From the NCBI RefSeq assembly GCF_057098645.1, contig NZ_CM169472.1: 64,000 nt of DNA. One strand, 5' to 3'. Made by a program: the position numbers and the translations under genes. The notes beneath the pieces were generated by a model. It saw only the letters and a list, made by a program, of their open reading frames with translations. It was not told the origin of the DNA and ran no database searches. This document shows, in pieces, positions 2,352-23,186 of the stretch (position 1 is the stretch's first letter; the number at the start of each line of letters is the position of its first letter).

Positions 2352-3674
2352 ATGAGTGCGTTAAGGGATGAAGTATCTATGAAGGTTGCGTTCTCTAATG
2401 GCATGATAAACAAATTATGCAAAAGTTTTTTTTATAGTCATGGTAAGGAGCAGCCTTGTATTCAAGTCGGTAAAGCATTAGAAGATTTTGTTTTTTGGCT
2501 TGCATATAATGATGAGGAGATTGCAAAATGTGCTAGTAGGTTATTAAAAGCATATGGCCCCCAATTAGGTATAAGTAACCTTCATAATGCGAAAAGATTA
2601 TTGTTAGGTTTTTGTTCTGAAGCCTTCAATCGCATTGATGCTGATTTTTTGTCGCTTAATCCTGATAAGATTTGTGTTGATGATATTATAACGCAAGTTC
2701 ATAGAAAAAATCTTAGTGAGATGTTTAAGTGTTATATACTTTCACGAATAAAATCCTGTCCATATATTTATAATCTTGGGTGTGCTGGCTTTGATGGGAA
2801 GCTTGAGCTTAGAGAAAATTTATTTTTATATGGCCCGGGGCTAGGGGTGGAATTACTTTCTGATATTAAAGACAAAACTGACATCAAGGTTCCTGTTGAT
2901 TTTTATGATGATGAATATATGCGGCATAAACCAATTGGGAAATATTTTCGACAGTCAAAATCCTGCTTGGTGGTGGCATATGCTTCATCAGAGGATAAAG
3001 CGGTGAAAATGTTTGATAGTTTGTTTGGAGCTTTATGTCTTGCAGTTGATAATCCTTTTGCGATTAATCGAGTTGCTGTTAATAATCTAGTTGAGTCTTT
3101 TGGTGTCGGGAAATATCATGAAAGTGAGTTTCGGGTGAATATTCCGTCTGTAAATAATTTAAATATAACGGATTCAACCTTGGCGATACTTACAAAAATA
3201 CTTTCATCACCTGATAAAAGGATGTTGTCTGCTCTTTCCTTTATAGCGCACGGGTGGAGAGATGACAAACGTGAAAGGTTTTTGAATCAATTTATAGCAT
3301 TGGATGCTATGTATGGAACCAATAATGGTAATAAAAATTCAATTATTGGCGGTGTTTGCAGAGATGCGGCGAAAATTATTGATATTGATTCAAAAATAGG
3401 AATAATCTATGAGCTTAGGTGTAAGTTTGTTCATGGAGATATTTCATCGTTATCTGATAATGATAGCTATCGAAAGTTTATTGATAGCTATGGCGTGGAC
3501 CCTATTGTTTCTCTTTTTGAAATTCTTAAAGAATGCGTCCTTAATTATAATGGTACTTACAAAACGCCAAAAGATGTTGGAAAGGCAGATAGGTCTATTT
3601 GCGTTCCTGCTGAGTTGCTTCCAGCGGTTGAGAGGATGATAGCGGAATACAGTGGAGTTAAAAAAACAAACTAA
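2352..3674 (+). CDS. Hypothetical cargo protein with a C-terminal HEPN-like domain (Rx4H), possibly an RNase-type abortive-infection effector
   Basis: 440-aa uninterrupted ORF with AAGGA 11 nt upstream of the ATG. It is strongly AT-rich (19/60 G+C at 2401-2460 versus 43/60 at 9001-9060 in the phage backbone). It has FIALDAMYG (aa 314-322) and YELRCKFVHGD (R356..H361, nt 3417-3434). It sits in the P2 old/tin position. The function is an inference. Confidence 0.6.
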   Translation: MSALRDEVSMKVAFSNGMINKLCKSFFYSHGKEQPCIQVGKALEDFVFWLAYNDEEIAKCASRLLKAYGPQLGISNLHNAKRLLLGFCSEAFNRIDADFLSLNPDKICVDDIITQVHRKNLSEMFKCYILSRIKSCPYIYNLGCAGFDGKLELRENLFLYGPGLGVELLSDIKDKTDIKVPVDFYDDEYMRHKPIGKYFRQSKSCLVVAYASSEDKAVKMFDSLFGALCLAVDNPFAINRVAVNNLVESFGVGKYHESEFRVNIPSVNNLNITDSTLAILTKILSSPDKRMLSALSFIAHGWRDDKRERFLNQFIALDAMYGTNNGNKNSIIGGVCRDAAKIIDIDSKIGIIYELRCKFVHGDISSLSDNDSYRKFIDSYGVDPIVSLFEILKECVLNYNGTYKTPKDVGKADRSICVPAELLPAVERMIAEYSGVKKTN

Positions 3675-4003: not shown

Positions 4004-5038
4004 TCAGCCGTTGTCAGTGTCCAGTGAGTAGTTTTTAAAGCGGATGACCTCCTGACCGAGCCAGCCGTTTATCTCGCGGATCCTGTCCTGTAGCGGGATA
4101 AGCTCATTGCGGACAAAGACCTTTACCACTTTCTCAATATCACCCAGCGACCCGACGTTCTCCGGCTTGCCGCCCATCAACTGAAAGGGGATGCGGTGCG
4201 CGTCCAGCAGGTCAGCGGCGCTGGCTTTTTTGATATTAAAAAAATCGTCCTTCGTTGCCACTTCACTGAGCGGGATAATTTTAATGCCGTCGGCTTTCCC
4301 CTGCGGGGCATAGAGAAACAGGTTTTTAAAGTTGTTGCGGCCTTTCGACTTGACCATGTTTTCGCGAAGCATTTCGATATCGTTGCGATCCTGCACGGCA
4401 TCGGTGACGTACATGATATATCCGGCATGAGCGCCGTTTTCGTAATACTTGCGGCGGAACAGCGTGGCCGACTCATTCAGCCAGGCAGAATTAAGGGCGC
4501 TGAGATATTCCGGCAGGCCGTACAGCTCCTGATTAATATCCGGCTCCAGCAGGTGAAACACGGAGCCGGGCGCGAAGGCTGTCGGCTCGTTGAAGGACGG
4601 CACCCACCAGTAAACATCCTCCTCCACGCCACGGCGGGTATATTTTGCCGGTGAGGTTTCCAGTCTGATGACCTTACCGGTGGTGCTGTAACGCTTTTCC
4701 AGAAACGCATTACCGAACACCAGAAAATCCAGCACAAAGCGGCTGAAATCCTGCTGGGAAAGCCACGGGTGCGGAATAAACGTTGAAGCCAGAATATTAC
4801 GTTTGACGTAAATCGGTGAGCTGTGATGTACGGCAGCACGCAGGCTTTTTGCCAGACCGGTAAAGCTGACCGGTGGCTCATACCATCTGCCGTTACTGAT
4901 GCACTCGACGTAATCCAGAATGTCACGGCGGTCGAGTACCGGCACCGGTTCACCAAAGGTGAATGCCTCCATTTTCGGGGCGCTGGCGGTCATTTTTTTT
5001 GCCGCAGGTTGCGGTGTTTTCCCTTTTTTCTTGCTCAT
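4004..5038 (-). CDS. Q: Portal protein gpQ
   Basis: 344-aa ORF, the same length as P2 Q. It overlaps the start/stop of P in the usual P2 arrangement. Confidence 0.93.
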   Translation of the reverse strand: MSKKKGKTPQPAAKKMTASAPKMEAFTFGEPVPVLDRRDILDYVECISNGRWYEPPVSFTGLAKSLRAAVHHSSPIYVKRNILASTFIPHPWLSQQDFSRFVLDFLVFGNAFLEKRYSTTGKVIRLETSPAKYTRRGVEEDVYWWVPSFNEPTAFAPGSVFHLLEPDINQELYGLPEYLSALNSAWLNESATLFRRKYYENGAHAGYIMYVTDAVQDRNDIEMLRENMVKSKGRNNFKNLFLYAPQGKADGIKIIPLSEVATKDDFFNIKKASAADLLDAHRIPFQLMGGKPENVGSLGDIEKVVKVFVRNELIPLQDRIREINGWLGQEVIRFKNYSLDTDNG

Positions 5039-10528: not shown

Positions 10529-10810
10529 ATGACAGCAGAAGAAAAAAGCGTCCTGTCGCTTTTCATGATTGGGGTGCTGATTGTTGTCGGCAAGGTGCTT
10601 GCCGGTGGTGAACCCATCACCCCGCGTCTGTTTATCGGGCGCATGTTGCTCGGTGGTTTTGTCTCGATGGTTGCCGGTGTTGTTCTGGTGCAGTTTCCTG
10701 ACCTGTCACTGCCTGCGGTGTGCGGCATCGGCTCCATGCTGGGTATCGCCGGTTATCAGGTGATTGAGATTGCCATTCAGCGCCGCTTTAAGGGCAGGGG
10801 GAAACAGTAA
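10529..10810 (+). CDS. Y: Holin gpY
   Basis: 93-aa ORF with hydrophobic helices and a charged C-terminus, in the P2 Y position. Confidence 0.88.
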   Translation: MTAEEKSVLSLFMIGVLIVVGKVLAGGEPITPRLFIGRMLLGGFVSMVAGVVLVQFPDLSLPAVCGIGSMLGIAGYQVIEIAIQRRFKGRGKQ

Positions 10811-11733
10811 TGCCGGTAATTAACACGCATCAGAATATCGCCGCCTTTCTCGACATGCTGGCGGTGTCCGAAGGGACGGCAAATCATCCGCTGACGAAAA
10901 ACCGGGGCTATGACGTGATAGTCACCGGACTGGACGGGAAGCCGGAAATCTTCACCGACTACAGTGACCACCCGTTCGCGCATGGCCGACCGGCGAAGGT
11001 GTTTAACCGTCGCGGTGAAAAGTCCACGGCCTCCGGTCGCTATCAGCAGCTTTACCTGTTCTGGCCGCACTACCGCAAACAGCTTGCCCTGCCGGATTTC
11101 AGTCCGTTGTCACAGGACAGACTCGCCATTCAGTTGATCCGCGAACGCGGTGCACTGGATGACATCCGGGCGGGACGCATTGAGCGCGCCATTTCACGCT
11201 GTCGCAATATCTGGGCGTCCCTGCCGGGTGCCGGTTACGGTCAGCGTGAGCATTCACTGGAAAAACTGGTCACCGTCTGGCGTACCGGCTTAAACGGAGT
11301 AAACACCATGAAGAAATTATCCCTTTCACTGATGCTGAATGTGTCGCTGGCGCTGATGCTGGCACTGTCACTGATTTACCCGCAGAGCGTGGCCGTCAGT
11401 TTTGTCGCTGCCTGGGCGATTCTGGCGACGGTTATCTGTGTGGTTGCCGGTGGTGTCGGCGTGTATGCCACTGAGTATGTACTTGAGCGCTACGGACGGG
11501 AGCTGCCGCCGGAATCGCTGGCCGTGAAGATTGTCACGTCGCTGTTTTTGCAGCCGGTGCCGTGGTGCAGACGGGCGGCGGGTCTGGTGGTGATGGTGGC
11601 GACGTTTATCTCGCTGGTCGCTGCCGGGTGGATTTTTACTGCACTGATTTATCTCGTGGCGTCGCTGTTTTTCCGGCTGATACGTAAAGCCTGTCGTCAG
11701 CGTTTTGAGGGGCGGGAACTATGTCAAAGCTGA
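10810..11733 (+). CDS. K: Endolysin gpK (lambda R-like transglycosylase) reading through in frame into LysA
   Basis: The N-terminal ~160 aa align with lambda R (FLDMLAVSEGT ... NIWASLPGAGYGQ). No in-frame stop occurs before MKKLSLSLML (LysA). TAA triplets at 11291 and 11300 are both in the +1 frame. Confidence 0.8.
   Translation: MPVINTHQNIAAFLDMLAVSEGTANHPLTKNRGYDVIVTGLDGKPEIFTDYSDHPFAHGRPAKVFNRRGEKSTASGRYQQLYLFWPHYRKQLALPDFSPLSQDRLAIQLIRERGALDDIRAGRIERAISRCRNIWASLPGAGYGQREHSLEKLVTVWRTGLNGVNTMKKLSLSLMLNVSLALMLALSLIYPQSVAVSFVAAWAILATVICVVAGGVGVYATEYVLERYGRELPPESLAVKIVTSLFLQPVPWCRRAAGLVVMVATFISLVAAGWIFTALIYLVASLFFRLIRKACRQRFEGRELCQS
11308..11733 (+). CDS. lysA: LysA (multi-pass membrane lysis-timing protein), possible internal-start product
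   Basis: The ATG at 11308 gives 141 aa, the P2 LysA length. The product has four hydrophobic segments. It shares its frame with K, so separate expression depends on internal initiation. Confidence 0.7.
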   Translation: MKKLSLSLMLNVSLALMLALSLIYPQSVAVSFVAAWAILATVICVVAGGVGVYATEYVLERYGRELPPESLAVKIVTSLFLQPVPWCRRAAGLVVMVATFISLVAAGWIFTALIYLVASLFFRLIRKACRQRFEGRELCQS

Positions 11734-12291: not shown

Positions 12292-12721
12292 TGCCGTCAC
12301 GGTGCTGAAAACCAGCCCCGAGATGCTGCGGATATTCGTGGATAACGGGAGTATTGCCTCCACACTGGCGACGTCACTGTCATTCGAAAAGCGTTACACG
12401 CTCAATGTCATTGTGACCGATTTTACCGATGATTTTGACCTGCTCATCGTGCCGGTGCTGGCGTGGCTGCGGGAAAATCAGCCCGACATCATGACCACCG
12501 ACGAAGGTCAGAAAAAGGGCTTCACGTTTTATGCAGACATCAACAATGACAGCAGCTTTGATATCAGCATCAGCCTGATGCTGACCGAGCGCACGCTGGT
12601 CAGTGAGGTGGACGGCGCACTGCATGTGAAGAATATCCCGGAACCCCCGCCGCCGGAGCCGGTCACCCGCCCGATGGAGCTGTATATCAATGGCGAACTG
12701 GTGAGCAAGTGGGATGAATGA
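12254..12721 (+). CDS. R: Tail completion protein gpR
   Basis: 155-aa ORF in the P2 R position and of the P2 R length. Confidence 0.9.
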   Translation: MLKPDSLRRALTDAVTVLKTSPEMLRIFVDNGSIASTLATSLSFEKRYTLNVIVTDFTDDFDLLIVPVLAWLRENQPDIMTTDEGQKKGFTFYADINNDSSFDISISLMLTERTLVSEVDGALHVKNIPEPPPPEPVTRPMELYINGELVSKWDE

Positions 12722-13163
12722 GTTTAAGCGTTTTGAAGACCGGCTGACCGGAATGATTGAGTCGCTGTCACCGTCAGGGCGTCGGCGACTGGCGGTAGAT
12801 ATTGCGAAGAAACTGCGCCAGCGCCAGCAGCAGCGAATTAAATTACAAAAAGGCCCGGATGGTACGCCGTATGTACCGAGAAAAAACCAACCAGTGCGAA
12901 ATAAGAAAGGCCGGATAAAGCGGGAAATGTTTGTGAAATTACGCACTAACCGGTTTATGAAAGCAACAGCTAGCGAGAGTGCGGCGGTGGTGGAGTTTAC
13001 TGGTAAGGTTGAGTGTATTGCGAGAGTACATCAATTTGGGTTGGCTGATAAGCCTAGTTACAACAGTAAGGCTGTGGTTTATCCTGTTCGTATACTTATG
13101 GGAATCTCAGAGCGTGATACGAAATTTGTTGAAGAAGTTATTATTCGCTACCTATCTCATTAG
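12714..13163 (+). CDS. S: Tail completion protein gpS (3' third is compositionally foreign)
   Basis: 149 aa starting MNEFKRFEDRLTG as in P2 S. G+C falls from 32/60 (12721-12780) to 22/60 (13081-13140). Confidence 0.88.
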   Translation: MNEFKRFEDRLTGMIESLSPSGRRRLAVDIAKKLRQRQQQRIKLQKGPDGTPYVPRKNQPVRNKKGRIKREMFVKLRTNRFMKATASESAAVVEFTGKVECIARVHQFGLADKPSYNSKAVVYPVRILMGISERDTKFVEEVIIRYLSH

Positions 13164-13208
13164 GGACGATGAAAATATAGTTTCATCAGCTATATTCTAG
13201 TATATAAA

Positions 13209-13243
13209 ATACTAAGGCTACACTAGCCGTGTAGCCTTAGTAT
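13209..13243. terminator. Bidirectional hairpin terminator between convergent S and the cargo ATPase
   Basis: Perfect 15-bp stem ATACTAAGGCTACAC / GTGTAGCCTTAGTAT with a 5-nt loop, flanked by A/T runs on both sides. Confidence 0.7.
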
Positions 13244-13263
13244 ATGTTTGGGATATTATATAA

Positions 13264-14508
13264 CTAAATCCAGCGAAGGTAGAATAGTAAGTAAGGATCT
13301 CTGATGTCTAATACATCGCTTTCTTGATCCCACTCGATAATACTGCTATTTGCAGCATCGTTGGCAATAGCAGTTGAGTGCTGACATGCACTGGTTATAC
13401 TAGAACCGCTTGGGCTATCGCCATGACATAACGAGGTCACTCGAGATACTAAGTCAGAATAACGAAATGTCAGCGTCGGAGGATTAGAAGCAATGGCTTT
13501 TAATAAAAAGACATAAACATCGCCTTGCCAGCCATCTTTTGATATATATGATTTTCTATCAGAACCACGCACTTTAGGTCCTTCGCGCATTTTATCCACA
13601 ATCGTGCTGTAATCTGCTGACTGAAGTGTACGTTTGCACACTCTTTGCAATGTGGCAATATCTTTTTGATATTTTATTGAAGTATCAGAAGTCTCTCTGA
13701 CATTCATTTCAAAACAAGAGTTTAAGCATAAATATTGCATTAGTTGTGGTGAGCCTGCGGACTCTTTTACTAACTCACTTATAACTTCATCAGAGGCATC
13801 TATATTGAGTAGTTTGAATCCTTTCTGAGCAATAATTTTTAAGGTTGATTCATCCCAATAATCAAAATCAATATTAAATATCCGGCCTCGTAAGTCAGAG
13901 TTACCCCGAAGAACATCATCAGAATGATATGGCACTGATGCACAAATAAATTTGCAGCCATTAGCTATGGCATCTTTTATTTGTCGTGATAGTTCGGCTT
14001 GAGCTTCTTTAGCAATATAGTGAAAATCATCGATAAAGATAACATAATCTGTGTTTGCGATTTCTCGCTTCATTAGTTGAAAGAGATCTATCGCAAATGA
14101 TTCTGAGGTTTGATCTGCTGTACTATAACCAGCGGATGCAGACCCTTTAAGACTACCTTTTGCTAAAATTACACCAGCTTGGGCAGATAATTCTCCTGTA
14201 CTTGAAAATGATGAGGTGCCAGTTTTACTTTGAACTTGGGTTACTGGTACACCAAGTATGTCGAAAACGCGCTTCCATAAATCATTAGCAGATTGAACCC
14301 CTGCTCCAGTTACTTCGATTAGCCTCTGGGTTCCAAGTACTTTCTTAACAAAGACAGTTTTTCCTGATTTTGATGGGCCAGAGATAGAAATCAGCATGGT
14401 GCCCATCTCAAGTGTATCGATTAACTGTTGCTGTTTAGATACTAGGTGATCCTCAACCAGTGTGTGGTTGGGATAACCGCCTGGGATAAAAACCTCTGTC
14501 GCCTTCAT
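13264..14508 (-). CDS. Orphan AAA+ (ORC/Cdc6- or ExeA/TniB-like) ATPase of unknown function; candidate defence cargo
   Basis: 414-aa ORF antisense to the tail operon. Walker A is GPSKSGKT (nt 14356-14379). Walker B is YVIFIDDFH. A sensor-like SAGSPQLMQYLC is present. It is AT-rich (17/60 G+C at 13801-13860). The function is an inference. Confidence 0.6.
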   Translation of the reverse strand: MKATEVFIPGGYPNHTLVEDHLVSKQQQLIDTLEMGTMLISISGPSKSGKTVFVKKVLGTQRLIEVTGAGVQSANDLWKRVFDILGVPVTQVQSKTGTSSFSSTGELSAQAGVILAKGSLKGSASAGYSTADQTSESFAIDLFQLMKREIANTDYVIFIDDFHYIAKEAQAELSRQIKDAIANGCKFICASVPYHSDDVLRGNSDLRGRIFNIDFDYWDESTLKIIAQKGFKLLNIDASDEVISELVKESAGSPQLMQYLCLNSCFEMNVRETSDTSIKYQKDIATLQRVCKRTLQSADYSTIVDKMREGPKVRGSDRKSYISKDGWQGDVYVFLLKAIASNPPTLTFRYSDLVSRVTSLCHGDSPSGSSITSACQHSTAIANDAANSSIIEWDQESDVLDIRDPYLLFYLRWI

Positions 14509-14549
14509 ATATCAACGCCAACATTATTAATGGTATGCCAATTTTACGT

Positions 14550-14567
14550 TGTAAGAGGATCAATACA
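14550..14567. promoter_or_regulatory. Perfect TGT-N12-ACA dyad upstream of V (candidate Ogr-dependent late promoter element)
   Basis: TGTAAGAGGATCAATACA lies 48-65 nt upstream of the V ATG. A CAATAT -10-like hexamer lies at 14602-14607. Confidence 0.4.
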
Positions 14568-14614
14568 AGTTCCATTTATTGCCTGTGAGTGCTGAAAAAT
14601 TCAATATTTGAAAA

Positions 14615-15250
14615 ATGAATATAAATCACTCATTACAAGAGCTTGCGCGTGCACTGCGCAACATGATCCGCACCGGTATTATCGTCGAAACCGACCTTAA
14701 CGCCGGTCGCTGCCGTGTGCAGACCGGCGGCATGTGCACCGACTGGCTTCAGTGGCTGACCCATCGTGCCGGACGTTCGCGCACATGGTGGGCACCTTCC
14801 GTGGGGGAACAGGTGCTGATTCTGGCTGTGGGCGGTGAACTCGACACGGCGTTCGTTCTGCCGGGGATTTATTCCGGCGATAACCCCGCGCCGTCTGCGT
14901 CGGCGGATGCCCTGCATATCCGTTTCCCTGACGGGGCGGTGATTGAGTATGAACCCGAAACCAGTTCACTGACGGTAAGCGGAATTAAAACGGCCAGCGT
15001 GACGGCTTCTGATTTTGTTACTGCCACGGTGCCGGTGGTCACGGTGAAAGCATCAACCCGCGTCACCCTGGACACACCGGAGGTGGTCTGCACCAACAGG
15101 CTGATTACCGGCACGCTGGAAGTGCAGAAGGGCGGGACGATGCGCGGCAACATTGAACACACCGGCGGTGAACTCTCATCAAACGGTAAGGTACTGCATA
15201 CCCATAAACACCCCGGCGACAGTGGCGGCACAACAGGGGGACCTCTATGA
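14615..15250 (+). CDS. V: Baseplate central spike gpV
   Basis: 211 aa, the P2 V length. From residue ~8 it reads QELARALRNMIRTGIIVETDLNAGRCRVQTGG as in P2. The first 7 codons differ and no Shine-Dalgarno is visible. Confidence 0.92.
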   Translation: MNINHSLQELARALRNMIRTGIIVETDLNAGRCRVQTGGMCTDWLQWLTHRAGRSRTWWAPSVGEQVLILAVGGELDTAFVLPGIYSGDNPAPSASADALHIRFPDGAVIEYEPETSSLTVSGIKTASVTASDFVTATVPVVTVKASTRVTLDTPEVVCTNRLITGTLEVQKGGTMRGNIEHTGGELSSNGKVLHTHKHPGDSGGTTGGPL

Positions 15251-18894: not shown

Positions 18895-19650
18895 TTAACG
18901 CGTTTTTTCGCTGCTTTCCACTACCGGGGGATTTTTCCTCAGTGACTCTCCCTGAAGGACCACTCGGTGTGAGTTATGTACCAGTCTGTCCAGGATGGCA
19001 TCTGCTGTTGTTGGGTTCTCCATCAGACCATGCCATTTATCTACCGGGAACTGGCTTACCACTATCGTGCTGCTTTGTCCGTAACGATCCTCTATGAGCT
19101 CCAGAAGGTCATTACACTGGGCGTTACTTAACTGTTCCAGCCCCAGATCGTCCAGGATTAGAACCTGTATTTTTTGCAACTGTTTCAGATATTTCAGCCA
19201 GCTGCCATCAACACGTCCCTGAGCCAGTTGTTCCAGTAATCGCCCGGTTCTACAGTACCGGACGCTGTGTTTCTGTCGACATGCCTGTTCGCCCAGCGCA
19301 TTGGCTATCCAGCTCTTGCCACATCCTGTCGGACCGGTTATCAGCAGGTTTTTCCTGTGGGTTATGTAGTGGCCGTTCAGCAGTTCTCTCATCTGTTCAG
19401 CCCGCAGACCTCTTGAGGCCGGATAGCGCAGCCCTTCCGGTGTTGCCTGGTATTTCAGGCCGGCATTTTTTCTCAACCGTGCCACACGGCTGTTTTCCCT
19501 GCTCAGAAGCTCGTCATCAACCAGCAGCGTCAGCCTTTCCTCGAACGACAGTTCGTCGTAGGTCTGAGGCGTTTCCCGCTGCCGTATCAGGCTCCCGGCC
19601 ATCGCCGGGAGTTTCAGTTGGGTCAGTTTGTTTAACAGGTTATCACTCAT
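18895..19650 (-). CDS. istB: IS21-family helper ATPase IstB
   Basis: The start at MSDNLLNKLTQLKLPAM is preceded by AAGGAA. The product is 251 aa with Walker A GPTGCGKSW and Walker B VLILDDLG. Confidence 0.88.
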   Translation of the reverse strand: MSDNLLNKLTQLKLPAMAGSLIRQRETPQTYDELSFEERLTLLVDDELLSRENSRVARLRKNAGLKYQATPEGLRYPASRGLRAEQMRELLNGHYITHRKNLLITGPTGCGKSWIANALGEQACRQKHSVRYCRTGRLLEQLAQGRVDGSWLKYLKQLQKIQVLILDDLGLEQLSNAQCNDLLELIEDRYGQSSTIVVSQFPVDKWHGLMENPTTADAILDRLVHNSHRVVLQGESLRKNPPVVESSEKTR

Positions 19651-19666
19651 ACTGTTGTTCCTTCTG

Positions 19667-21202
19667 TCAGTGGTAGTAGCCCGGACCACGCAGGTTTTCA
19701 TGCTCTGAAGCATATGCCGGATGTTGTTCGCCCTGGCGGGATAATGGAAGCTCCAGGTTCTCCCGATGGTGACGCAGCAGATTGTCGATAAAGCGTCTGT
19801 CAGGGGCGTTATAGTGCAGGGCAACGTAACAGGCCTTTTCCAGCCGTTCCGGGCCGTATTTTTTCTGAAGTGCCAGCAGCCCCAGAACTGCACGATAAGC
19901 CAGTTCCGGATGGGGTTTTGCCTTCAGCATGGATTCAACCACCCGGCCTGTGGACGGGCCCGTACGTTTTCCCTGCTCGATCAGGCGTTCCGGTGTCCAT
20001 GTCCCGTGCTGCCGGTGGCGCTCTGGCATGTGAAGCGGATTGGTTGTGTGTTTATATTCATGTGTGCTGCGCGGATGTTGCGCCACACACTGCCCCTTGT
20101 GCCAGAGCTGTACCACCGACTGCCCCGCCTTCAGTGACAGACGCTGACCGACCAGTTCGTGTGGAACGGAGTACCAGTGACGGGCATATTCAACGTGGTA
20201 GTCAGGGCCAACCTTCACAGCTTTGTATTCCGTGTATTCATAAGGTGCCAGAGGCAGCGGAGAGAGTGCTGGCGCATCCAGTATGCGGAAGCGTTCTGCA
20301 CGGGTTTGATTGCCGTACCCCTTCATTGGCCGGTTATTCATGTCTGTCAGTAACTCCCTAAGGCGCGCATTCAGCGCCCTGAGCGTGTGGAAGGTTTCAT
20401 TACGGATGCGGGCAAGAAGCCATCGTTCAACGATGAGGACGCCGTTTTCTGCTTTTGGTTTATCTTTAGGTTTGCGTGGTCGGGCCGGGATGATAACCGT
20501 GCCATAGTGCTCAGCCAGTGCCTGATAACTGTCGTTGATGACAGGCTCATATCGATCGGCCTTTTTCACTGCGCTTCTGAGGTTATCGGGGATGAGCAGC
20601 TTCGGTACGCCGCCCAGGAAGGTCAGGCAACGGCTGTGGGCATTTAACCATGACATCATGTCCTGACCTTCGCACGCTTCAACGTAGGTATAGTTGGACG
20701 CCCCCATTACGGCCACGAAGATTGCCACGCGGCGTATCTCACCGGTGTCCGGATTAATAACAGGAACCGTAGGACCACAGAAGTCGATAAAAAGCTTTTC
20801 GCCGGCACGATGCTCCTGGCGCATGGAGAGACGTCGCGTTTTTTTCCACTCCCGGTAGCAACGGCAGAAGTGCGAGTATCCCATCGCTTTGTTACCCGCC
20901 TGTGCCTTGTATTCCATCCACAACAGTTGCCGCGTCACACCTGGTTTTCTCATTTCCGTATCGAAGTACAACATGTCAGGCATTACAAGCTCTGATGCAA
21001 AGGTGTCTTTGGGCGGAAAAATGAGTTTCTCCAGCGTGTCATGGGATATATCAGCAGGTAATGGCCATGACAGAGAAGAGGCTTTGAAGCGGGCAAGAAC
21101 CTCAAAAACGGTTGAGGCGCTGATGTGTAACGTCAGTCCGATACAACGGTTAGTCAGCTTCTTGTCGAACTTGAGCTGAAGGATCTTAAAACAGGTTTCC
21201 AT
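19667..21202 (-). CDS. istA: IS21-family transposase IstA
   Basis: The start at METCFKILQLKF is preceded by AGGAG. The product is 511 aa with an N-terminal HTH-like region and a DDE-type core. Its stop lies 16 nt before the istB start. Confidence 0.85.
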   Translation of the reverse strand: METCFKILQLKFDKKLTNRCIGLTLHISASTVFEVLARFKASSLSWPLPADISHDTLEKLIFPPKDTFASELVMPDMLYFDTEMRKPGVTRQLLWMEYKAQAGNKAMGYSHFCRCYREWKKTRRLSMRQEHRAGEKLFIDFCGPTVPVINPDTGEIRRVAIFVAVMGASNYTYVEACEGQDMMSWLNAHSRCLTFLGGVPKLLIPDNLRSAVKKADRYEPVINDSYQALAEHYGTVIIPARPRKPKDKPKAENGVLIVERWLLARIRNETFHTLRALNARLRELLTDMNNRPMKGYGNQTRAERFRILDAPALSPLPLAPYEYTEYKAVKVGPDYHVEYARHWYSVPHELVGQRLSLKAGQSVVQLWHKGQCVAQHPRSTHEYKHTTNPLHMPERHRQHGTWTPERLIEQGKRTGPSTGRVVESMLKAKPHPELAYRAVLGLLALQKKYGPERLEKACYVALHYNAPDRRFIDNLLRHHRENLELPLSRQGEQHPAYASEHENLRGPGYYH

Positions 21203-21306
21203 AGTGCTCCTGGATTTTCTCTTTCTGGACATTGACGTCTCCACTGGTTTAAACACGGCAATGGAGACTGTGGTGAAAAGAGTTAATTCCCGGAGTGACT
21301 GGCAGG

Positions 21307-21434
21307 ATGCCAATCAATGATCGGAAGCATGCCAAATCGTGATCGATTGTGATGCCAAACTGTGATCGGAGATGGATGCCAAATCATGATCGATTCGAAT
21401 GCCAAACTGCGATCGATTCAGATGCCATTTTGCA
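21307..21434. repeat. IS21-family istA-proximal terminal repeat array (six phased copies)
   Basis: ATGCCAA(A/T)NNNTGATCG(A/G)-like copies start at 21307, 21329, 21352, 21376 and 21399. A terminal half copy starts at 21422. Spacing is 22-24 bp. Confidence 0.8.
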
Positions 21435-21440
21435 CCAGAT

Positions 21441-21479
21441 ATTGAATGGCCTACGCCTCCGGTAGTTCAGGCCAGATGA
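21441..21479 (+). pseudogene. G: Tail fibre assembly chaperone gpG, 3' remnant (12 codons plus stop)
   Basis: After the target duplication the G frame continues IEWPTPPVVQAR*. This parallels the ...APDVIWPELPEA* end of the inverted paralogue. Confidence 0.75.
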
Positions 21480-22056
21480 CATCCGGCGCGGTGCTGATAT
21501 CTGTTGCAGTCACCGCGTCAATGTAATCCAGCACAGCGTTAAGCCGGGTTGTTTCTGCCTGCGTCAGCTTCCGCCCGGCCTGCAATTTCAGCTGAATCAG
21601 ACTAATGGAAGCCATAGCCGCATCAATCAGTGACTGGCGCCGTACTTCTGCCGCGTCTACTGCGGCGTTATGCTGTGCCTCAGTGTCGGTCACCCATTTC
21701 TCACCATCCCATTTATCGTATGACGTTAACGGGGCGATAGTGGTTGTATTTTCAGGGTAATCACCCGGAACTGTGATTTCTTTTGATTCTCCTGTTTCGG
21801 TGCTATAGACGATTTCACCGCGATGGTCTGGCACATATTCCCATGAGTTAAAATCTGCAGAACGGCAAATTGCATAACCAGCTTTATATGAGCCAGGAGC
21901 ATCTAAACAGGAACATGCCGGGATACCGACACCCACAGCAAGATATTCAGTTGATGTGGAAATATATTCCCGTGTTTCACCATCATAATTATAAACGGTA
22001 ATGTCTCCGGCCTTTGTGGCGATGAGTTCATTATTTAATACAGCTTTACTTATCAT
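21451..22056 (-). CDS. Alternative tail fibre assembly chaperone (G'), intact, inverted orientation
   Basis: 201-aa ORF with a C-terminus (QAETTRLNAVLDYIDAVTATDISTAPDVIWPELPEA) typical of Tfa/U-type chaperones. It is convergent with and overlaps the G 3' end. Confidence 0.85.
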   Translation of the reverse strand: MISKAVLNNELIATKAGDITVYNYDGETREYISTSTEYLAVGVGIPACSCLDAPGSYKAGYAICRSADFNSWEYVPDHRGEIVYSTETGESKEITVPGDYPENTTTIAPLTSYDKWDGEKWVTDTEAQHNAAVDAAEVRRQSLIDAAMASISLIQLKLQAGRKLTQAETTRLNAVLDYIDAVTATDISTAPDVIWPELPEA

Positions 22057-22537: not shown

Positions 22538-22592
22538 TGCAGAGATTATGTCTAACTGGCATCATCTCCGGTTTTTATTCAGGGGGATGCTC

Positions 22593-23186
22593 ATGCTTAT
22601 TGGCTATGTACGCGTGTCAACAAATGACCAGAACACGGAATTGCAGCGTAATGCGCTGGAGTGCGCAGGATGTGAGCTGATTTTTGAGGACAAAATCAGC
22701 GGCACGAAGTCCGACAGGCCGGGGCTGAAAAAACTGCTCAGAACATTATCGGAAGGTGACACTCTGGTTGTCTGGAAGCTGGACAGGCTGGGGCGTAGTA
22801 TGCGGCATCTGGTCATTCTGGTTGAGGAACTGCGCGAACGCGGCGTTAATTTTCGCAGCCTGACGGATGCTATTGATACCAGCACGCCGATGGGGCGTTT
22901 TTTCTTTCATGTGATGGGTGCCCTGGCTGAAATGGAGCGAGAACTCATTGTCGAGCGGACACGCGCCGGACTGGAAGCGGCCAGAGCCAAAGGTCGTATT
23001 GGTGGCAGACGACCGAAACTCACCGCGAGTGAGTGGGAGCAGGCCGGGCGTTTGCTGGCTGCAGGGGAGTCACGTCAACGCGTGGCACTGATTTTTGATA
23101 TTGGTCTGTCCACGCTCTATAAAAAATTTCCCTCATCAGCGACAAAGAATAAATTGTGTCATCCCTTAGCCAACCGGGACAAATAG
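22593..23186 (+). CDS. Serine DNA invertase (Hin/Gin/Pin/Cin family)
   Basis: The start at MLIGYVRVSTNDQNTELQRNAL is preceded by AGGGGG. The product is 197 aa and closely resembles e14 Pin and Mu Gin as I recall them, including the catalytic Ser in YVRVST and the C-terminal HTH. Confidence 0.92.
   Translation: MLIGYVRVSTNDQNTELQRNALECAGCELIFEDKISGTKSDRPGLKKLLRTLSEGDTLVVWKLDRLGRSMRHLVILVEELRERGVNFRSLTDAIDTSTPMGRFFFHVMGALAEMERELIVERTRAGLEAARAKGRIGGRRPKLTASEWEQAGRLLAAGESRQRVALIFDIGLSTLYKKFPSSATKNKLCHPLANRDK
23155..23172. promoter_or_regulatory. Late-promoter partial dyad TGT-N12-cCA upstream of FI
   Basis: TGTGTCATCCCTTAGCCA lies 74-91 nt upstream of the FI ATG and has the same pattern as 6880-6897. 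Confidence 0.4.

What the first reader, a model, noticed from the sequence alone, without database searches (positions are those of the whole stretch)
13164..14614. Orphan AAA+/ORC-like ATPase inserted antisense between tail genes S and V: candidate defence or exclusion gene at a little-studied P2 variable locus
Seen in sequence:
- A 414-aa ORF (13264-14508, minus strand) interrupts the otherwise co-directional late tail operon.
- It is AT-rich (17/60 G+C at 13801-13860).
- It ends at a perfect 15-bp-stem bidirectional hairpin (13209-13243).
- It has its own AT-rich upstream region, shared divergently with V.
- It carries Walker A GPSKSGKT, Walker B YVIFIDDFH and a sensor-like SAGSPQLMQYLC. 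This is reminiscent of ExeA/TniB/ORC-type AAA+ proteins.
- The ~130-aa C-terminal region is unrecognisable to me, and no nuclease, TIR, SIR2 or transmembrane effector motif is visible.

Established knowledge: the S-V junction is where P2 carries the low-GC moron orf30, of unknown function. Orphan P-loop ATPases are common sensor or effector components of anti-phage systems.

Inference: a gene maintained in opposite orientation with its own terminator inside a late operon is probably expressed in the lysogen. It could be a single-gene defence or superinfection-exclusion function, or one directed at satellites such as P4.
Basis: partly seen in the sequence, partly recalled or inferred. Interest (0 to 1): 0.8.

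Follow-up and report, generated by a model that had tools for sequence, protein, structure and literature searches.

The report
Solo ORC-like ATPase in P2 prophage
An E. coli P2-type prophage carries, in the gap between two of its tail operons, a foreign stand-alone ATPase switch protein whose relatives elsewhere are joined to classic immune "killer" domains, which makes it a good but untested candidate for a new single-gene anti-phage defence.

Summary
A 414-aa ORF (13264-14508, minus strand) at 39% G+C lies antisense between P2 genes S and V, followed by a perfect 15-bp hairpin.

It does not interrupt an operon. S ends the ONMLKRS late operon, and V keeps its own TGT-N12-ACA late promoter. 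This is the known "orf30" variable locus. In about 47 sampled E. coli P2 prophages it was mostly empty or held one of at least four unrelated cargos.

The protein models confidently as an ORC/Cdc6-type AAA+ ATPase with lid and C-terminal winged helix. It also has a 50-aa Ser/Thr/Gly-rich disordered loop. The family is uncharacterised, solitary, patchily spread across many phyla and usually lower in G+C than its flanks.

An enterobacterial clade (57-78% identity) sits at this same S-V site under strong purifying selection. One copy stays intact in a decayed Pantoea prophage remnant.

It is only a partial match to the untested PADLOC candidate PDC-S59. More distant relatives of the whole module are fused to TIR or cyclase domains, or are paired with a nuclease or kinase gene.

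The best reading is a lysogen-expressed immune sensor or switch ATPase. Its output is unknown and nothing has been tested experimentally.

The parts
13264..14508 (-). CDS, 414 aa: solitary ORC/Cdc6-STAND-like AAA+ ATPase with lid and C-terminal winged-helix region
14356..14379 (-). Walker A (GPSKSGKT, residues 44-51)
   Evidence: G44, K47, G49 and K50 are invariant in 51 diverse homologues.
14098..14247 (-). Residues 88-137: beta-hairpin arm with a roughly 40-residue disordered Ser/Thr/Gly/Ala-rich loop. Its length is conserved and its sequence is variable. It is inserted between helix alpha2 and the Walker B strand.
   Evidence: pLDDT below 50 for residues 95-135. Conservation 0.47 against 0.70-0.81 for the other domains. 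Length 43-51 residues in all homologues.
14020..14046 (-). Walker B (YVIFIDDFH, residues 155-163; hhhhDD type)
   Evidence: D160 is invariant; D161, H163 and Y164 are conserved in at least 90%.
13882..13893 (-). LRGR (residues 206-209). R209 is invariant and lies just before strand beta5, which makes it a candidate arginine finger (box VII position).
   Evidence: The assignment as an arginine finger is inference.
13726..13761 (-). SAGSPQLMQYLC (residues 250-261) in the lid: a GxP-type motif at the sensor-2 position
   Evidence: P254, L256 and Q258 are invariant. A helix spans 254-267 in the model.
13267..13659 (-). C-terminal region (residues 284-414), helix/strand pattern of a winged-helix-type domain, ending in the conserved DPYxLFYLRW motif
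   Evidence: pLDDT 82-95 in all but one 10-residue block of the full-length model (block 311-320: 70), with H-S-H-H-S-S order. Homologous over its whole length to the TIR-fused clade. A model of this region alone failed (pLDDT 53).
13209..13243 (.). Perfect 15-bp stem / 5-nt loop hairpin between the convergent stops of the ATPase gene and S. It is an intrinsic terminator for the ATPase gene and probably also ends the S operon.
   Evidence: Analogous stem-loops of unrelated sequence follow the cargo gene in 6 of 7 other S-V cargos examined.
14509..14614 (.). Divergent 106-bp AT-rich intergenic region. It contains the V late promoter element TGT-N12-ACA (14549-14566, + strand). A weak candidate sigma-70 promoter for the ATPase gene lies on the minus strand (-35 TTGTAT at 14567-14562, 16-nt spacer, -10 TAAAAT at 14545-14540) and overlaps that element.
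   Evidence: The consensus is taken from PMC3931495. The minus-strand promoter is my manual reading and was not called by the scan. A similar TTGTTT/17/TAAATT arrangement is seen in L010.
12939..13163 (+). Mosaic 3' third of gene S (43% G+C), which arrived with the cargo. The left recombination junction lies inside S.
   Evidence: Homology to P2 and L-413C ends at 12938, and to R18C at 13091. It resumes at 14636 in V. G+C values.

Best explanation
The gene is horizontally acquired accessory cargo (a 'moron') at the orf30 variable locus of an E. coli P2-like prophage. It lies in the gap between the ONMLKRS and VWJIHG late operons.

It encodes a minimal nucleotide-switch protein. The parts are an ORC/Cdc6-like N-terminal motif, an AAA+ core with intact Walker A and B and a candidate trans-acting arginine (R209), a lid with a GxP motif, and a winged-helix C-terminal domain. 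A flexible Ser/Thr/Gly-rich loop of conserved length is inserted in the core. There is no effector domain and no partner gene.

I think it most likely works as a lysogen-expressed anti-phage or anti-mobile-element immunity protein:
1. A cue from an infecting element is sensed by the variable loop and/or the winged-helix domain.
2. This drives ATP-dependent oligomerisation, as in ORC, MuB, TnsC and STAND proteins.
3. In this effector-less form, the oligomer itself is the output, for instance by coating or occupying incoming DNA or replication intermediates, or it recruits an unlinked host factor.

Shown here: the location, the foreign origin, the fold class, the intact ATPase motifs, purifying selection, the solitary state, and modular association of the homologous module with immune effectors in other lineages.

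Inferred: expression in the lysogen, the trigger, oligomerisation, DNA binding and the defence phenotype.
For: 1. Foreign, self-contained cargo.
- 39% G+C against 55-63% in the flanks.
- It has its own terminator hairpin.
- The recombination junctions lie inside S and V.
- It occurs in 11 of 5,426 E. coli genomes, against 1,459 genomes that hold at least 80% of the 5.4-kb flanking P2 late region used as query.

2. Hotspot behaviour. Of about 47 sampled P2 prophages, about 31 were empty, about 11 had the orf30 type, 2 the R18C type, 2 a 347-aa cargo and 1 this gene. The literature lists orf30 among three regions of acquired genes.

4. Active-site conservation. K50, D160 and R209 are invariant down to 28% identity.

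5. Selection and host benefit.
- dN is 0.19-0.38 with saturated dS against four other P2-like phages that carry it at the same site.
- The copy in Pantoea septica is intact while the neighbouring S, V and J genes are fragments.
- The window's own prophage shows decay: a 14-bp deletion fuses K and lysA, and an IS21 is inserted.

6. Accessory-gene ecology. It is found in 516 of 185,579 species genomes across many phyla. In 54 of 71 loci the gene is more than 5 points lower in G+C than its flanks, and it is never higher.

7. Immune links.
- All 51 diverse members hit PADLOC PDC-S59, a candidate identified by being embedded in known defence systems.
- The whole module is homologous (hhalign 99.3%, E 7.5e-21) to a large actinobacterial clade with a C-terminal TIR. 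One example lies next to caspase and TIR genes.
- One member has an N-terminal class III cyclase.
- Homologues at 31% identity on Clostridium plasmids and in a Clostridioides phage are followed by a conserved gene with a weak match to the pAgo-associated protein AgaN; on my reading it carries a D...ExK nuclease motif.
- Two myxobacterial copies are followed by a Ser/Thr kinase ORF.
Against: - There is no experimental evidence for this family or for PDC-S59.
- The PDC-S59 match is partial: residues 37-296, 107 bits, and the best family member reaches only 1.3e-39.
- The nearest neighbours of 79 homologues are mostly housekeeping genes with a few recombinases, not defence islands.
- This protein has no effector, so the output step has no precedent that I could test.
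- No consensus sigma-70 promoter was detected upstream, and AT-rich genes in E. coli are often silenced.
- The effector associations are in distant branches (22-38% identity) and need not apply to the solo proteobacterial clade.
- The other S-V cargos have no defence annotation either.
Confidence: 0.55

Rival explanations
1. It is a non-defence lysogenic-conversion or regulatory factor: an ATP-dependent DNA-binding protein (ORC, DnaA or MuB-like) that alters host or prophage replication, transcription or chromosome organisation to the benefit of the lysogen, without acting on invading elements.
For: The fold class is that of DNA-binding initiators and target selectors. The gene is solitary and sits among housekeeping neighbours in many genomes. 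It is retained in a prophage remnant, which shows host benefit but not what kind.
Against: The distribution is patchy and HGT-like, with low G+C in 54 of 71 loci. The same module is repeatedly coupled to TIR, nuclease, kinase and cyclase functions. It is related to a defence-embedded candidate family.
Confidence: 0.2
2. It is a counter-defence decoy. As an effector-less copy of an immune sensor carried by the phage, it co-assembles with and poisons a host sensor of the same family, or soaks up its trigger.
For: It lacks any effector, while homologues carry TIR or are paired with a nuclease. It is phage-borne in Enterobacterales.
Against: No effector-bearing homologue was seen in Enterobacterales. 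Most solo members are chromosomal in bacteria rather than in phages. It stays intact when the prophage decays, and all ATPase motifs are conserved. It is antisense to the late genes and carries its own terminator, which suits expression in the lysogen rather than during infection.
Confidence: 0.05
3. It is a remnant or component of a transposon-type system: a MuB/TnsC/TniB-like target-selector ATPase.
Against: No transposase is conserved next to it in 79 loci, and the largest shared neighbour family covers only 6 loci. None is present at the S-V site in any phage. MuB and TnsC lack the C-terminal domain seen here.
Confidence: 0.03
4. It is a structural, assembly or replication ATPase used by the phage itself.
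For: It lies among the tail genes. One database label reads 'Bacterial dnaA protein' for a viral MAG copy.
Against: It is absent from about 99% of E. coli P2-like prophages and from all 76 sequenced P2-like phages matched. It is antisense and foreign in G+C. The search of viral structures gives only generic clamp-loader AAA+ hits with TM below 0.45 for all but three, which are short or unnamed proteins. Most family members are not in phages.
Confidence: 0.02

Closest known systems
Archaeal 'Walker-type' ATPases PAB2304 (PDB 2qen) and SSO1545 (2fna), Pfam ATPase_2 PF01637, and archaeal Orc1/Cdc6 (2qby, 1fnn)
   Different: Sequence identity is only 15-20%. All Pfam hits fall below the gathering score. 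A 50-aa Ser/Thr/Gly-rich hairpin loop sits where initiators have the helical ISM. The gene is bacterial, mobile and solitary, and has no role at an origin of replication.
PADLOC phage-defence candidate PDC-S59 (Payne et al. 2024, bioRxiv 10.1101/2024.01.29.577857)
   Same: It is a single-gene candidate of about 428 aa with a co-linear ATPase region. All 51 family members match it.
   Different: The match covers only residues 37-296 at 107 bits, so this is a sister family rather than a member. PDC-S59 was defined by being embedded in BREX, DISARM or type I RM loci, and it is untested. This gene lies in a prophage tail region.
Actinobacterial ATPase-winged-helix-TIR proteins (e.g. WP_222657429, Curtobacterium plasmid pTCL), and STAND/NLR-like immune NTPases in general (Avs, bNACHT, nSTAND families)
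   Same: The whole 335-aa module is homologous (hhalign 99.3%). Shared motifs are EVF..G.PTHT.V, the Walker A motif, IDDFH, PDL..R and DP.L.FYLR. The Walker B is of the hhhhDD type and there is a GxP motif, as in STAND proteins.
   Different: This protein has no TIR or other effector and no repeat-type sensor. It has an invariant arginine at the AAA+ finger position, which STAND proteins lack. The S/T-rich loop is absent from the TIR clade.
P2 lysogenic-conversion exclusion genes old, tin and fun(Z), and P2 orf30
   Same: These are also low-GC single genes at the variable loci of P2-like prophages. P2 orf30 occupies the same site, is also antisense and also has its own stem-loop.
   Different: There is no sequence or fold relationship. 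Old is an ABC-ATPase/TOPRIM nuclease. The function of orf30 is unknown, and no exclusion phenotype has been shown for this gene.
BrxC/PglY of BREX and the MuB/TnsC target selectors
   Same: They are ORC/Cdc6-clade AAA+ ATPases that act on DNA through ATP-dependent assembly. BrxC is part of a defence system that blocks phage replication without cleaving DNA (abstracts of PMC13326643 and PMC12839542).
   Different: Those proteins work in multi-protein systems with a methyltransferase or a transposase. No such partners are present here.

Membership tests
AAA+ ATPase, ORC/Cdc6-like (initiator/STAND-related) group | Walker A GxxxxGK[ST] and Walker B hhhhD[DE], conserved across the family | tested here: met
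   GPSKSGKT at 44-51 and FIDDFH at 158-163. K50 and D160 are invariant in 51 homologues down to 28% identity.
AAA+ ATPase, ORC/Cdc6-like (initiator/STAND-related) group | alpha/beta core plus helical lid plus C-terminal winged helix, with structural similarity to Orc1/Cdc6 | tested here: met
AAA+ ATPase, ORC/Cdc6-like (initiator/STAND-related) group | Helical initiator-specific motif (ISM) between alpha2 and beta3 | tested here: not met
   The model shows a beta-hairpin (strands 91-95 and 134-138) with a disordered 40-residue loop at that position instead.
AAA+ ATPase, ORC/Cdc6-like (initiator/STAND-related) group | Passes the gathering score of a Pfam family (AAA_22, AAA_16, ATPase_2 or ORC-CDC6-like) | tested here: not met
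   AAA_22 scores 24.2 against a cut-off of 27, AAA_16 19.7 against 32.6, and ATPase_2 18.3 against 33.2. ORC-CDC6-like is hit by only 3 of 51 members (best E 7.8e-4).
PADLOC PDC-S59 | Full-length, high-scoring match to the PDC-S59 profile (428 positions) | tested here: not met
   107 bits covering profile positions 37-292 only. The best of 51 family members reaches 1.3e-39.
PADLOC PDC-S59 | Embedded within a BREX, DISARM or type I RM locus (the basis on which PDCs were defined) | tested here: not met
   Here the gene lies between phage genes S and V. No such embedding was noticed among the nearest neighbours of 79 homologues.
STAND / NLR-like immune NTPases | NOD with hhhhDD Walker B, a GxP motif in the helical domain and a following winged helix | tested here: met
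   FIDDFH, then SAGSPQ (P254 invariant), then a winged-helix-type C-terminus. The equivalence of the motifs is by position, not by superposition.
STAND / NLR-like immune NTPases | Fused effector domain and C-terminal repeat sensor (TPR, WD40 or LRR) | tested here: not met
   The 414 aa are fully accounted for by the module. Effectors occur only in relatives: TIR and cyclase.
P2 lysogenic-conversion / superinfection-exclusion genes | Low-GC cargo at a variable locus of P2-like phages with its own transcription signals | tested here: met
   The promoter is only a weak manual candidate.
P2 lysogenic-conversion / superinfection-exclusion genes | Expressed in the lysogen and blocks another phage | not testable with these tools
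   This needs RNA-seq or reporter assays and plaque assays.
MuB/TnsC/TniB transposition ATPases | Encoded next to a cognate transposase within a transposon | tested here: not met
   There is no conserved neighbour in 79 loci and none at the S-V site in any phage.

The most novel reading that the evidence does not exclude
An effector-less, partner-less, minimal ORC/NLR-like ATPase is by itself a complete immune system. On sensing an invader it assembles, ATP-dependently, on the invader's DNA or replication intermediates and blocks replication or packaging without any nuclease, NADase or membrane effector. The conserved-length Ser/Thr/Gly-rich loop serves as the fast-evolving sensing or regulatory element. 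It would be the ancestral or stripped-down core of a wider family that elsewhere acquired TIR, cyclase, nuclease or kinase outputs, and it would be carried around Enterobacterales by P2-like phages at the orf30 site.
Probability: 0.15. Interest if true: 0.8.

Novelty: new variant of a known kind. Interest (0 to 1): 0.58.

Why it matters
P2-like prophages are a proven source of new defence systems, but the systematic hotspot papers read here do not single out the S-V (orf30) site: they treat the A-Q and Z/fun hotspots and, at most, an unresolved hotspot 'within the tail genes'.

This finding gives that third site a concrete, testable cargo. It defines a large uncharacterised protein family: about 1,700 clusters at 50% identity, found in about 0.3% of species genomes across many phyla. 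The conserved module is shared with TIR-fused and nuclease-linked proteins.

If the solo form protects cells, it would show how an NLR/ORC-type switch can act without a dedicated effector. It would also add a compact single-gene system, about 1.25 kb, to the defence repertoire.

If it does not protect, the result still narrows what the persistent, strongly selected cargo at this locus is for.

Tried and rejected
- Pfam, NCBIfam and PHROGs on the protein gave only sub-threshold AAA hits, weak RuvB hits and an unknown-function PHROG.
- A profile search against PDB sequences found no solved relative.
- A separate AF2 model of the C-terminal 143 aa came out at pLDDT 53 and was unusable, so the planned fold search on it was dropped.
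- The BFVD viral fold search returned only generic clamp-loader AAA+ matches.
- A search for a conserved partner gene in 79 loci found none. Searching the nuclease, HEPN-like and TIR sequences against 685 neighbouring ORFs gave no hits.
- A defence-island test on 139 nearest neighbours gave heterogeneous, mostly housekeeping results, so 'guilt by association' was rejected as evidence for the proteobacterial clade.
- Literature searches for PDC-S59 and for the RefSeq accession found nothing.
- The other S-V cargos (P2 orf30, R18C gp15 and the 347-aa protein) have no Pfam or PADLOC assignment.
- The promoter scan found no consensus sigma-70 site upstream of the gene.
- The tail-assembly ATPase and transposon-ATPase readings were considered and rejected (see the rival explanations).
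Full report
**1. The observation**

It lies between P2 gene S (12714-13163) and gene V (14615-15250). These flanks are 94.5-97% identical to P2, L-413C and related Peduovirus genomes. The host is E. coli, since ycaI-msbA-lpxK in the window is 100% identical to E. coli genomes.

- The ORF is 39% G+C, with 17/60 at 13801-13860, against 55-63% in the flanks.
- The motifs are at the stated residues.
- The hairpin at 13209-13243 has a perfect 15-bp stem and a 5-nt loop. Its folding energy is -24.2 kcal/mol, z = -5.8, and no shuffle out of 200 folds as well.
- The scan scores it as an intrinsic terminator only for the minus strand.

**2. Corrections to the description**

The gene does not interrupt an operon. 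P2 has four late operons (PQ, ONMLKRS, VWJIHG and FI-D), each preceded by a TGT-N12-ACA element (PMC3931495). S is the last gene of one operon and V is the first gene of the next.

The window keeps an exact TGT-N12-ACA at 14549-14566, about 65 nt before the V start. A GTTGT...ACA element sits at the same distance in every P2-like phage I compared. The cargo therefore sits in a natural inter-operon gap.

The replaced segment is also wider than the ORF. Homology to P2 and L-413C ends at 12938, inside S, and to R18C at 13091. It resumes at 14636, 21 nt into V. The last third of S (43% G+C) came in with the cargo, and S remains an intact 149-aa ORF.

**3. The locus is a hotspot, and a known one**

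In P2 the site holds orf30, which is 261 aa and also antisense. In R18C it holds a 246-aa gene on the sense strand. In L-413C it is empty.

I used a 5.4-kb query made of the conserved flanks and took an even sample of 60 of the 1,869 matching E. coli records. Among about 47 full-length P2 late regions:
- about 31 were empty;
- about 11 had the orf30 type;
- 2 had the R18C type;
- 2 carried a 347-aa antisense gene;
- 1 carried this gene.

Overall the ATPase gene is in 11 of 5,426 complete E. coli genomes, always at this site.

Lynch et al. 2010 (PMC3091744), citing earlier work, already list the TO region, the Z region and orf30 as the three places where P2-like phages carry horizontally acquired genes. 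Moura de Sousa et al. 2026 (PMC13586616) mention a defence hotspot 'within the tail genes' without resolving this site. None of the alternative cargos has a Pfam or PADLOC assignment.

Six of the seven other S-V cargos examined are followed by a strong stem-loop of unrelated sequence between their stop codon and that of S. A private, probably bidirectional, terminator is therefore part of the architecture of this locus.

**4. What the protein is**

Sequence libraries give only sub-threshold AAA hits.

An AlphaFold2 model built on 32 homologues is confident (mean pLDDT 80, pTM 0.70). The exception is residues 95-135, which are disordered.
- Foldseek against the PDB puts Pyrobaculum Cdc6 first (2.8e-10), followed by ORC1/Cdc6, RFC, RuvB, PAB2304 and MuB.

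The N-terminal motif VFTPGxxPxxT(Y/L)V, which precedes the P-loop, resembles the one in Orc1/Cdc6 (my own knowledge). Modelled alone it failed (pLDDT 53), so I could not search with it separately.

Residues invariant across 51 homologues down to 28% identity include K50 (Walker A), D160 (Walker B), R209 (just before strand beta5, the position of the AAA+ arginine finger) and P254/L256/Q258 in the lid. The protein therefore looks like a working nucleotide switch that hydrolyses ATP at subunit interfaces.

The one variable part is a hairpin arm with a loop of about 40 residues rich in Ser, Thr, Gly and Ala (residues 88-137). It has constant length (43-51 residues) and composition but variable sequence. 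Its conservation is 0.47, against 0.70-0.81 for the other domains. It sits where initiator-clade ATPases carry their DNA-binding ISM helices.

**5. The family**

The protein belongs to a large, uncharacterised family of uniform length, about 415-440 aa.
- There are 1,724 clusters at 50% identity with E <= 1e-3, and 364 with E <= 1e-30.
- Relatives were found in 516 of 185,579 species genomes. They span Proteobacteria, Verrucomicrobia, Cyanobacteria, Planctomycetes, Acidobacteria, Myxococcota, Chloroflexi, Actinomycetes, Bacteroidetes and Gemmatimonadota.
- Identities of 55-59% between Enterobacterales and such distant phyla indicate strong conservation and horizontal spread.
- In 54 of 71 loci the gene is more than 5 points lower in G+C than its flanks, and it is never higher.
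- It is solitary. No neighbouring gene family is shared by more than 6 of 79 loci.
- The nearest neighbours are mostly housekeeping genes, with a few resolvases and integrases. I therefore do not claim defence-island association.

**6. The phage-borne clade**

Homologues sit antisense between S and V of intact P2-like prophages in four other cases: 75% identity (unassigned metagenome and a Caudoviricetes MAG), 71% (Serratia marcescens), 69% (Cronobacter) and 57% (Serratia).

Against these phages the ATPase has dN 0.19-0.38 with saturated dS. Its amino-acid identity (57-75%) is in the same range as that of R, S, V, W and J (49-80%). This is consistent with long residence at the site under purifying selection. 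The gene stays at 39-41% G+C in all five phages while the flanks are 58-61%. I cannot explain this lack of amelioration.

In Pantoea septica a 62%-identical copy is intact inside a roughly 3.6-kb prophage remnant between rplS and host genes. There S is split into 77-aa and 67-aa pieces, V is cut to 115 aa and J to 62 aa. The gene is evidently kept for the cell, not for the virion.

The window's prophage is itself damaged. A 14-bp deletion fuses the endolysin gene with lysA, and an IS21 copy sits after gene G.

**7. Links to immunity**

- Every one of 51 diverse family members matches the PADLOC model PDC-S59, but only over the ATPase part and weakly (107 bits here; best 1.3e-39). The family is a sister of PDC-S59, not a member. 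PDCs are untested candidates found embedded in BREX, DISARM or type I RM loci. I found no mention of S59 anywhere.
- A 490-aa protein on a Curtobacterium plasmid is homologous to the whole module, from the N-terminal motif to the C-terminal DPxLxFYLR (hhalign 99.3%, E 7.5e-21). It continues into a TIR domain and lies next to caspase and TIR genes. It represents a large actinobacterial clade in which nearly all of the top 120 clusters carry TIR_2.
- One family member has an N-terminal class III nucleotidyl cyclase domain.
- Homologues at 31% identity on Clostridium megaplasmids and in a Clostridioides phage are followed by a conserved gene of about 260 aa (46% identical between the two). It matches the pAgo-associated protein AgaN at E 3e-4; on my reading of the alignment it carries a D...ExK nuclease motif (RYDI...IEVK).
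- Two myxobacterial copies (L093, L094) are followed by a 278-aa co-directional ORF. The one tested, from L093, is a Hanks-type Ser/Thr kinase, and 3-4 of the 139 neighbours hit PD-T4-6 kinase models.
- A marine gammaproteobacterial copy has an upstream gene with a weak HEPN hit.

This modular pairing of one conserved NTPase module with different toxic or signalling outputs is the pattern seen in STAND/NLR-type immune proteins. All of these associations are in distant branches.

**8. Mechanism proposed**

I propose a lysogen-expressed immune switch.
1. A cue from an invading element is read by the variable loop and/or the winged-helix domain.
2. This triggers ATP-dependent assembly.
3. The assembly either activates a fused or linked effector (in the other branches) or, in this solo form, acts directly on DNA or through an unlinked factor.

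Expression is inferred. The only promoter candidate is a weak one that I read by eye on the minus strand (TTGTAT-16-TAAAAT, 14567-14540). It overlaps the Ogr-binding element of the V promoter, and L010 has a similar arrangement. If real, it would be occluded when late transcription is activated.

Overall I put the defence reading at about 0.55. The output step is the weakest part.

**9. Rivals**

The rival readings are scored under the rival explanations:
- a non-defence DNA-binding regulator (0.2);
- a counter-defence decoy (0.05);
- a transposon ATPase (0.03);
- a phage structural or replication ATPase (0.02).

The last is contradicted by the gene's rarity among P2 phages, its orientation, its composition and its mainly non-phage distribution. 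There is also no specific viral structural match.

**10. Verdict**

The finding is real and the fold assignment is right. The locus is a known variable site rather than an interrupted operon.

The cargo is an undescribed family member of the NLR/ORC-like kind, with good circumstantial but no experimental support for defence. I rate it a new variant of a known kind, with interest about 0.58.

Noticed in passing
window 2352-3674 (+): A 440-aa ORF lies between gpA (1-2268) and the portal gene Q (4004-5038, minus strand). This is the classical old/tin defence hotspot of P2. The ORF has no Pfam, PADLOC or PDB-sequence match, so it is a second unknown cargo in the same prophage.
   Followed up: partly
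window 18895-21313 (-): An IS21-family element is inserted just after tail-fibre assembly gene G. IstA is 548 aa (rve plus Mu-transposase C-terminal domain) and IstB is 332 aa (IstB_IS21). A second tail-fibre assembly gene (21451-22056) and a DNA invertase (22548-23186) lie next to it.
   Followed up: partly
window ~11278 (ORF 10810-11733): A 14-bp deletion between TGGCGTACCG repeats, relative to other E. coli P2-like prophages, shifts the end of endolysin gene K. It fuses K in frame with lysA into a 307-aa ORF. The prophage may be defective for lysis.
   Followed up: partly
L107:4878-6350 (Curtobacterium plasmid pTCL) and proteins P0270-P0389: A large actinobacterial clade of proteins of about 490 aa joins the same ATPase-winged-helix module to a C-terminal TIR domain. 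The plasmid copy lies next to a caspase-family gene and a second TIR gene. I did not establish whether this clade is an already named defence system.
   Followed up: partly
L108:7161-7979 and L106:6194-6967: In Clostridium megaplasmids and a Clostridioides phage, the 31%-identical ATPase is followed by a conserved gene of about 260 aa. On my reading it has an RYDI...IEVK (PD-(D/E)xK-like) motif, and it gives a weak match to the pAgo-associated protein AgaN. This looks like a two-gene ATPase plus nuclease system.
   Followed up: partly
protein P0259 (630 aa): This family member has an N-terminal class III adenylyl/guanylyl cyclase domain. It matches Ma1120 (PDB 4wp9) at E 8e-14.
   Followed up: partly
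L101/L102 2612-6178 (Pantoea septica): A decayed P2-like prophage remnant lies between rplS and host genes. Fragments of J, V and S surround an intact 414-aa ATPase gene.
   Followed up: partly
L093:9308-10144, L094:9284-10120: In Polyangiaceae/Myxococcales the homologue is followed 42-66 nt downstream by a co-directional 278-aa ORF. The L093 copy is a Hanks-type Ser/Thr kinase. This is intriguing given the Ser/Thr-rich loop of the ATPase, but it may be lineage-specific synteny.
   Followed up: partly
window 13264-14508; L010, L013, L103, L105: The ATPase gene stays at 39-41% G+C in five P2-like phages whose flanks are 58-61%, even though synonymous sites are saturated between them. There is no amelioration, and I have no explanation. 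Selection for AT-richness, for example for xenogeneic silencing, or repeated exchange are both possible.
   Followed up: no
L020:3284-4327 (-), E. coli STN0717-20: Another S-V cargo: a 347-aa antisense hypothetical protein with its own stem-loop and no Pfam or PADLOC hit.
   Followed up: partly
L002-L007:5004-5906 (+): In a widespread marine gammaproteobacterium, the homologue (P0065, seen on 247 contigs) is preceded by a co-directional 300-aa gene with a sub-threshold HEPN_RiboL-PSP hit at E 0.001.
   Followed up: no
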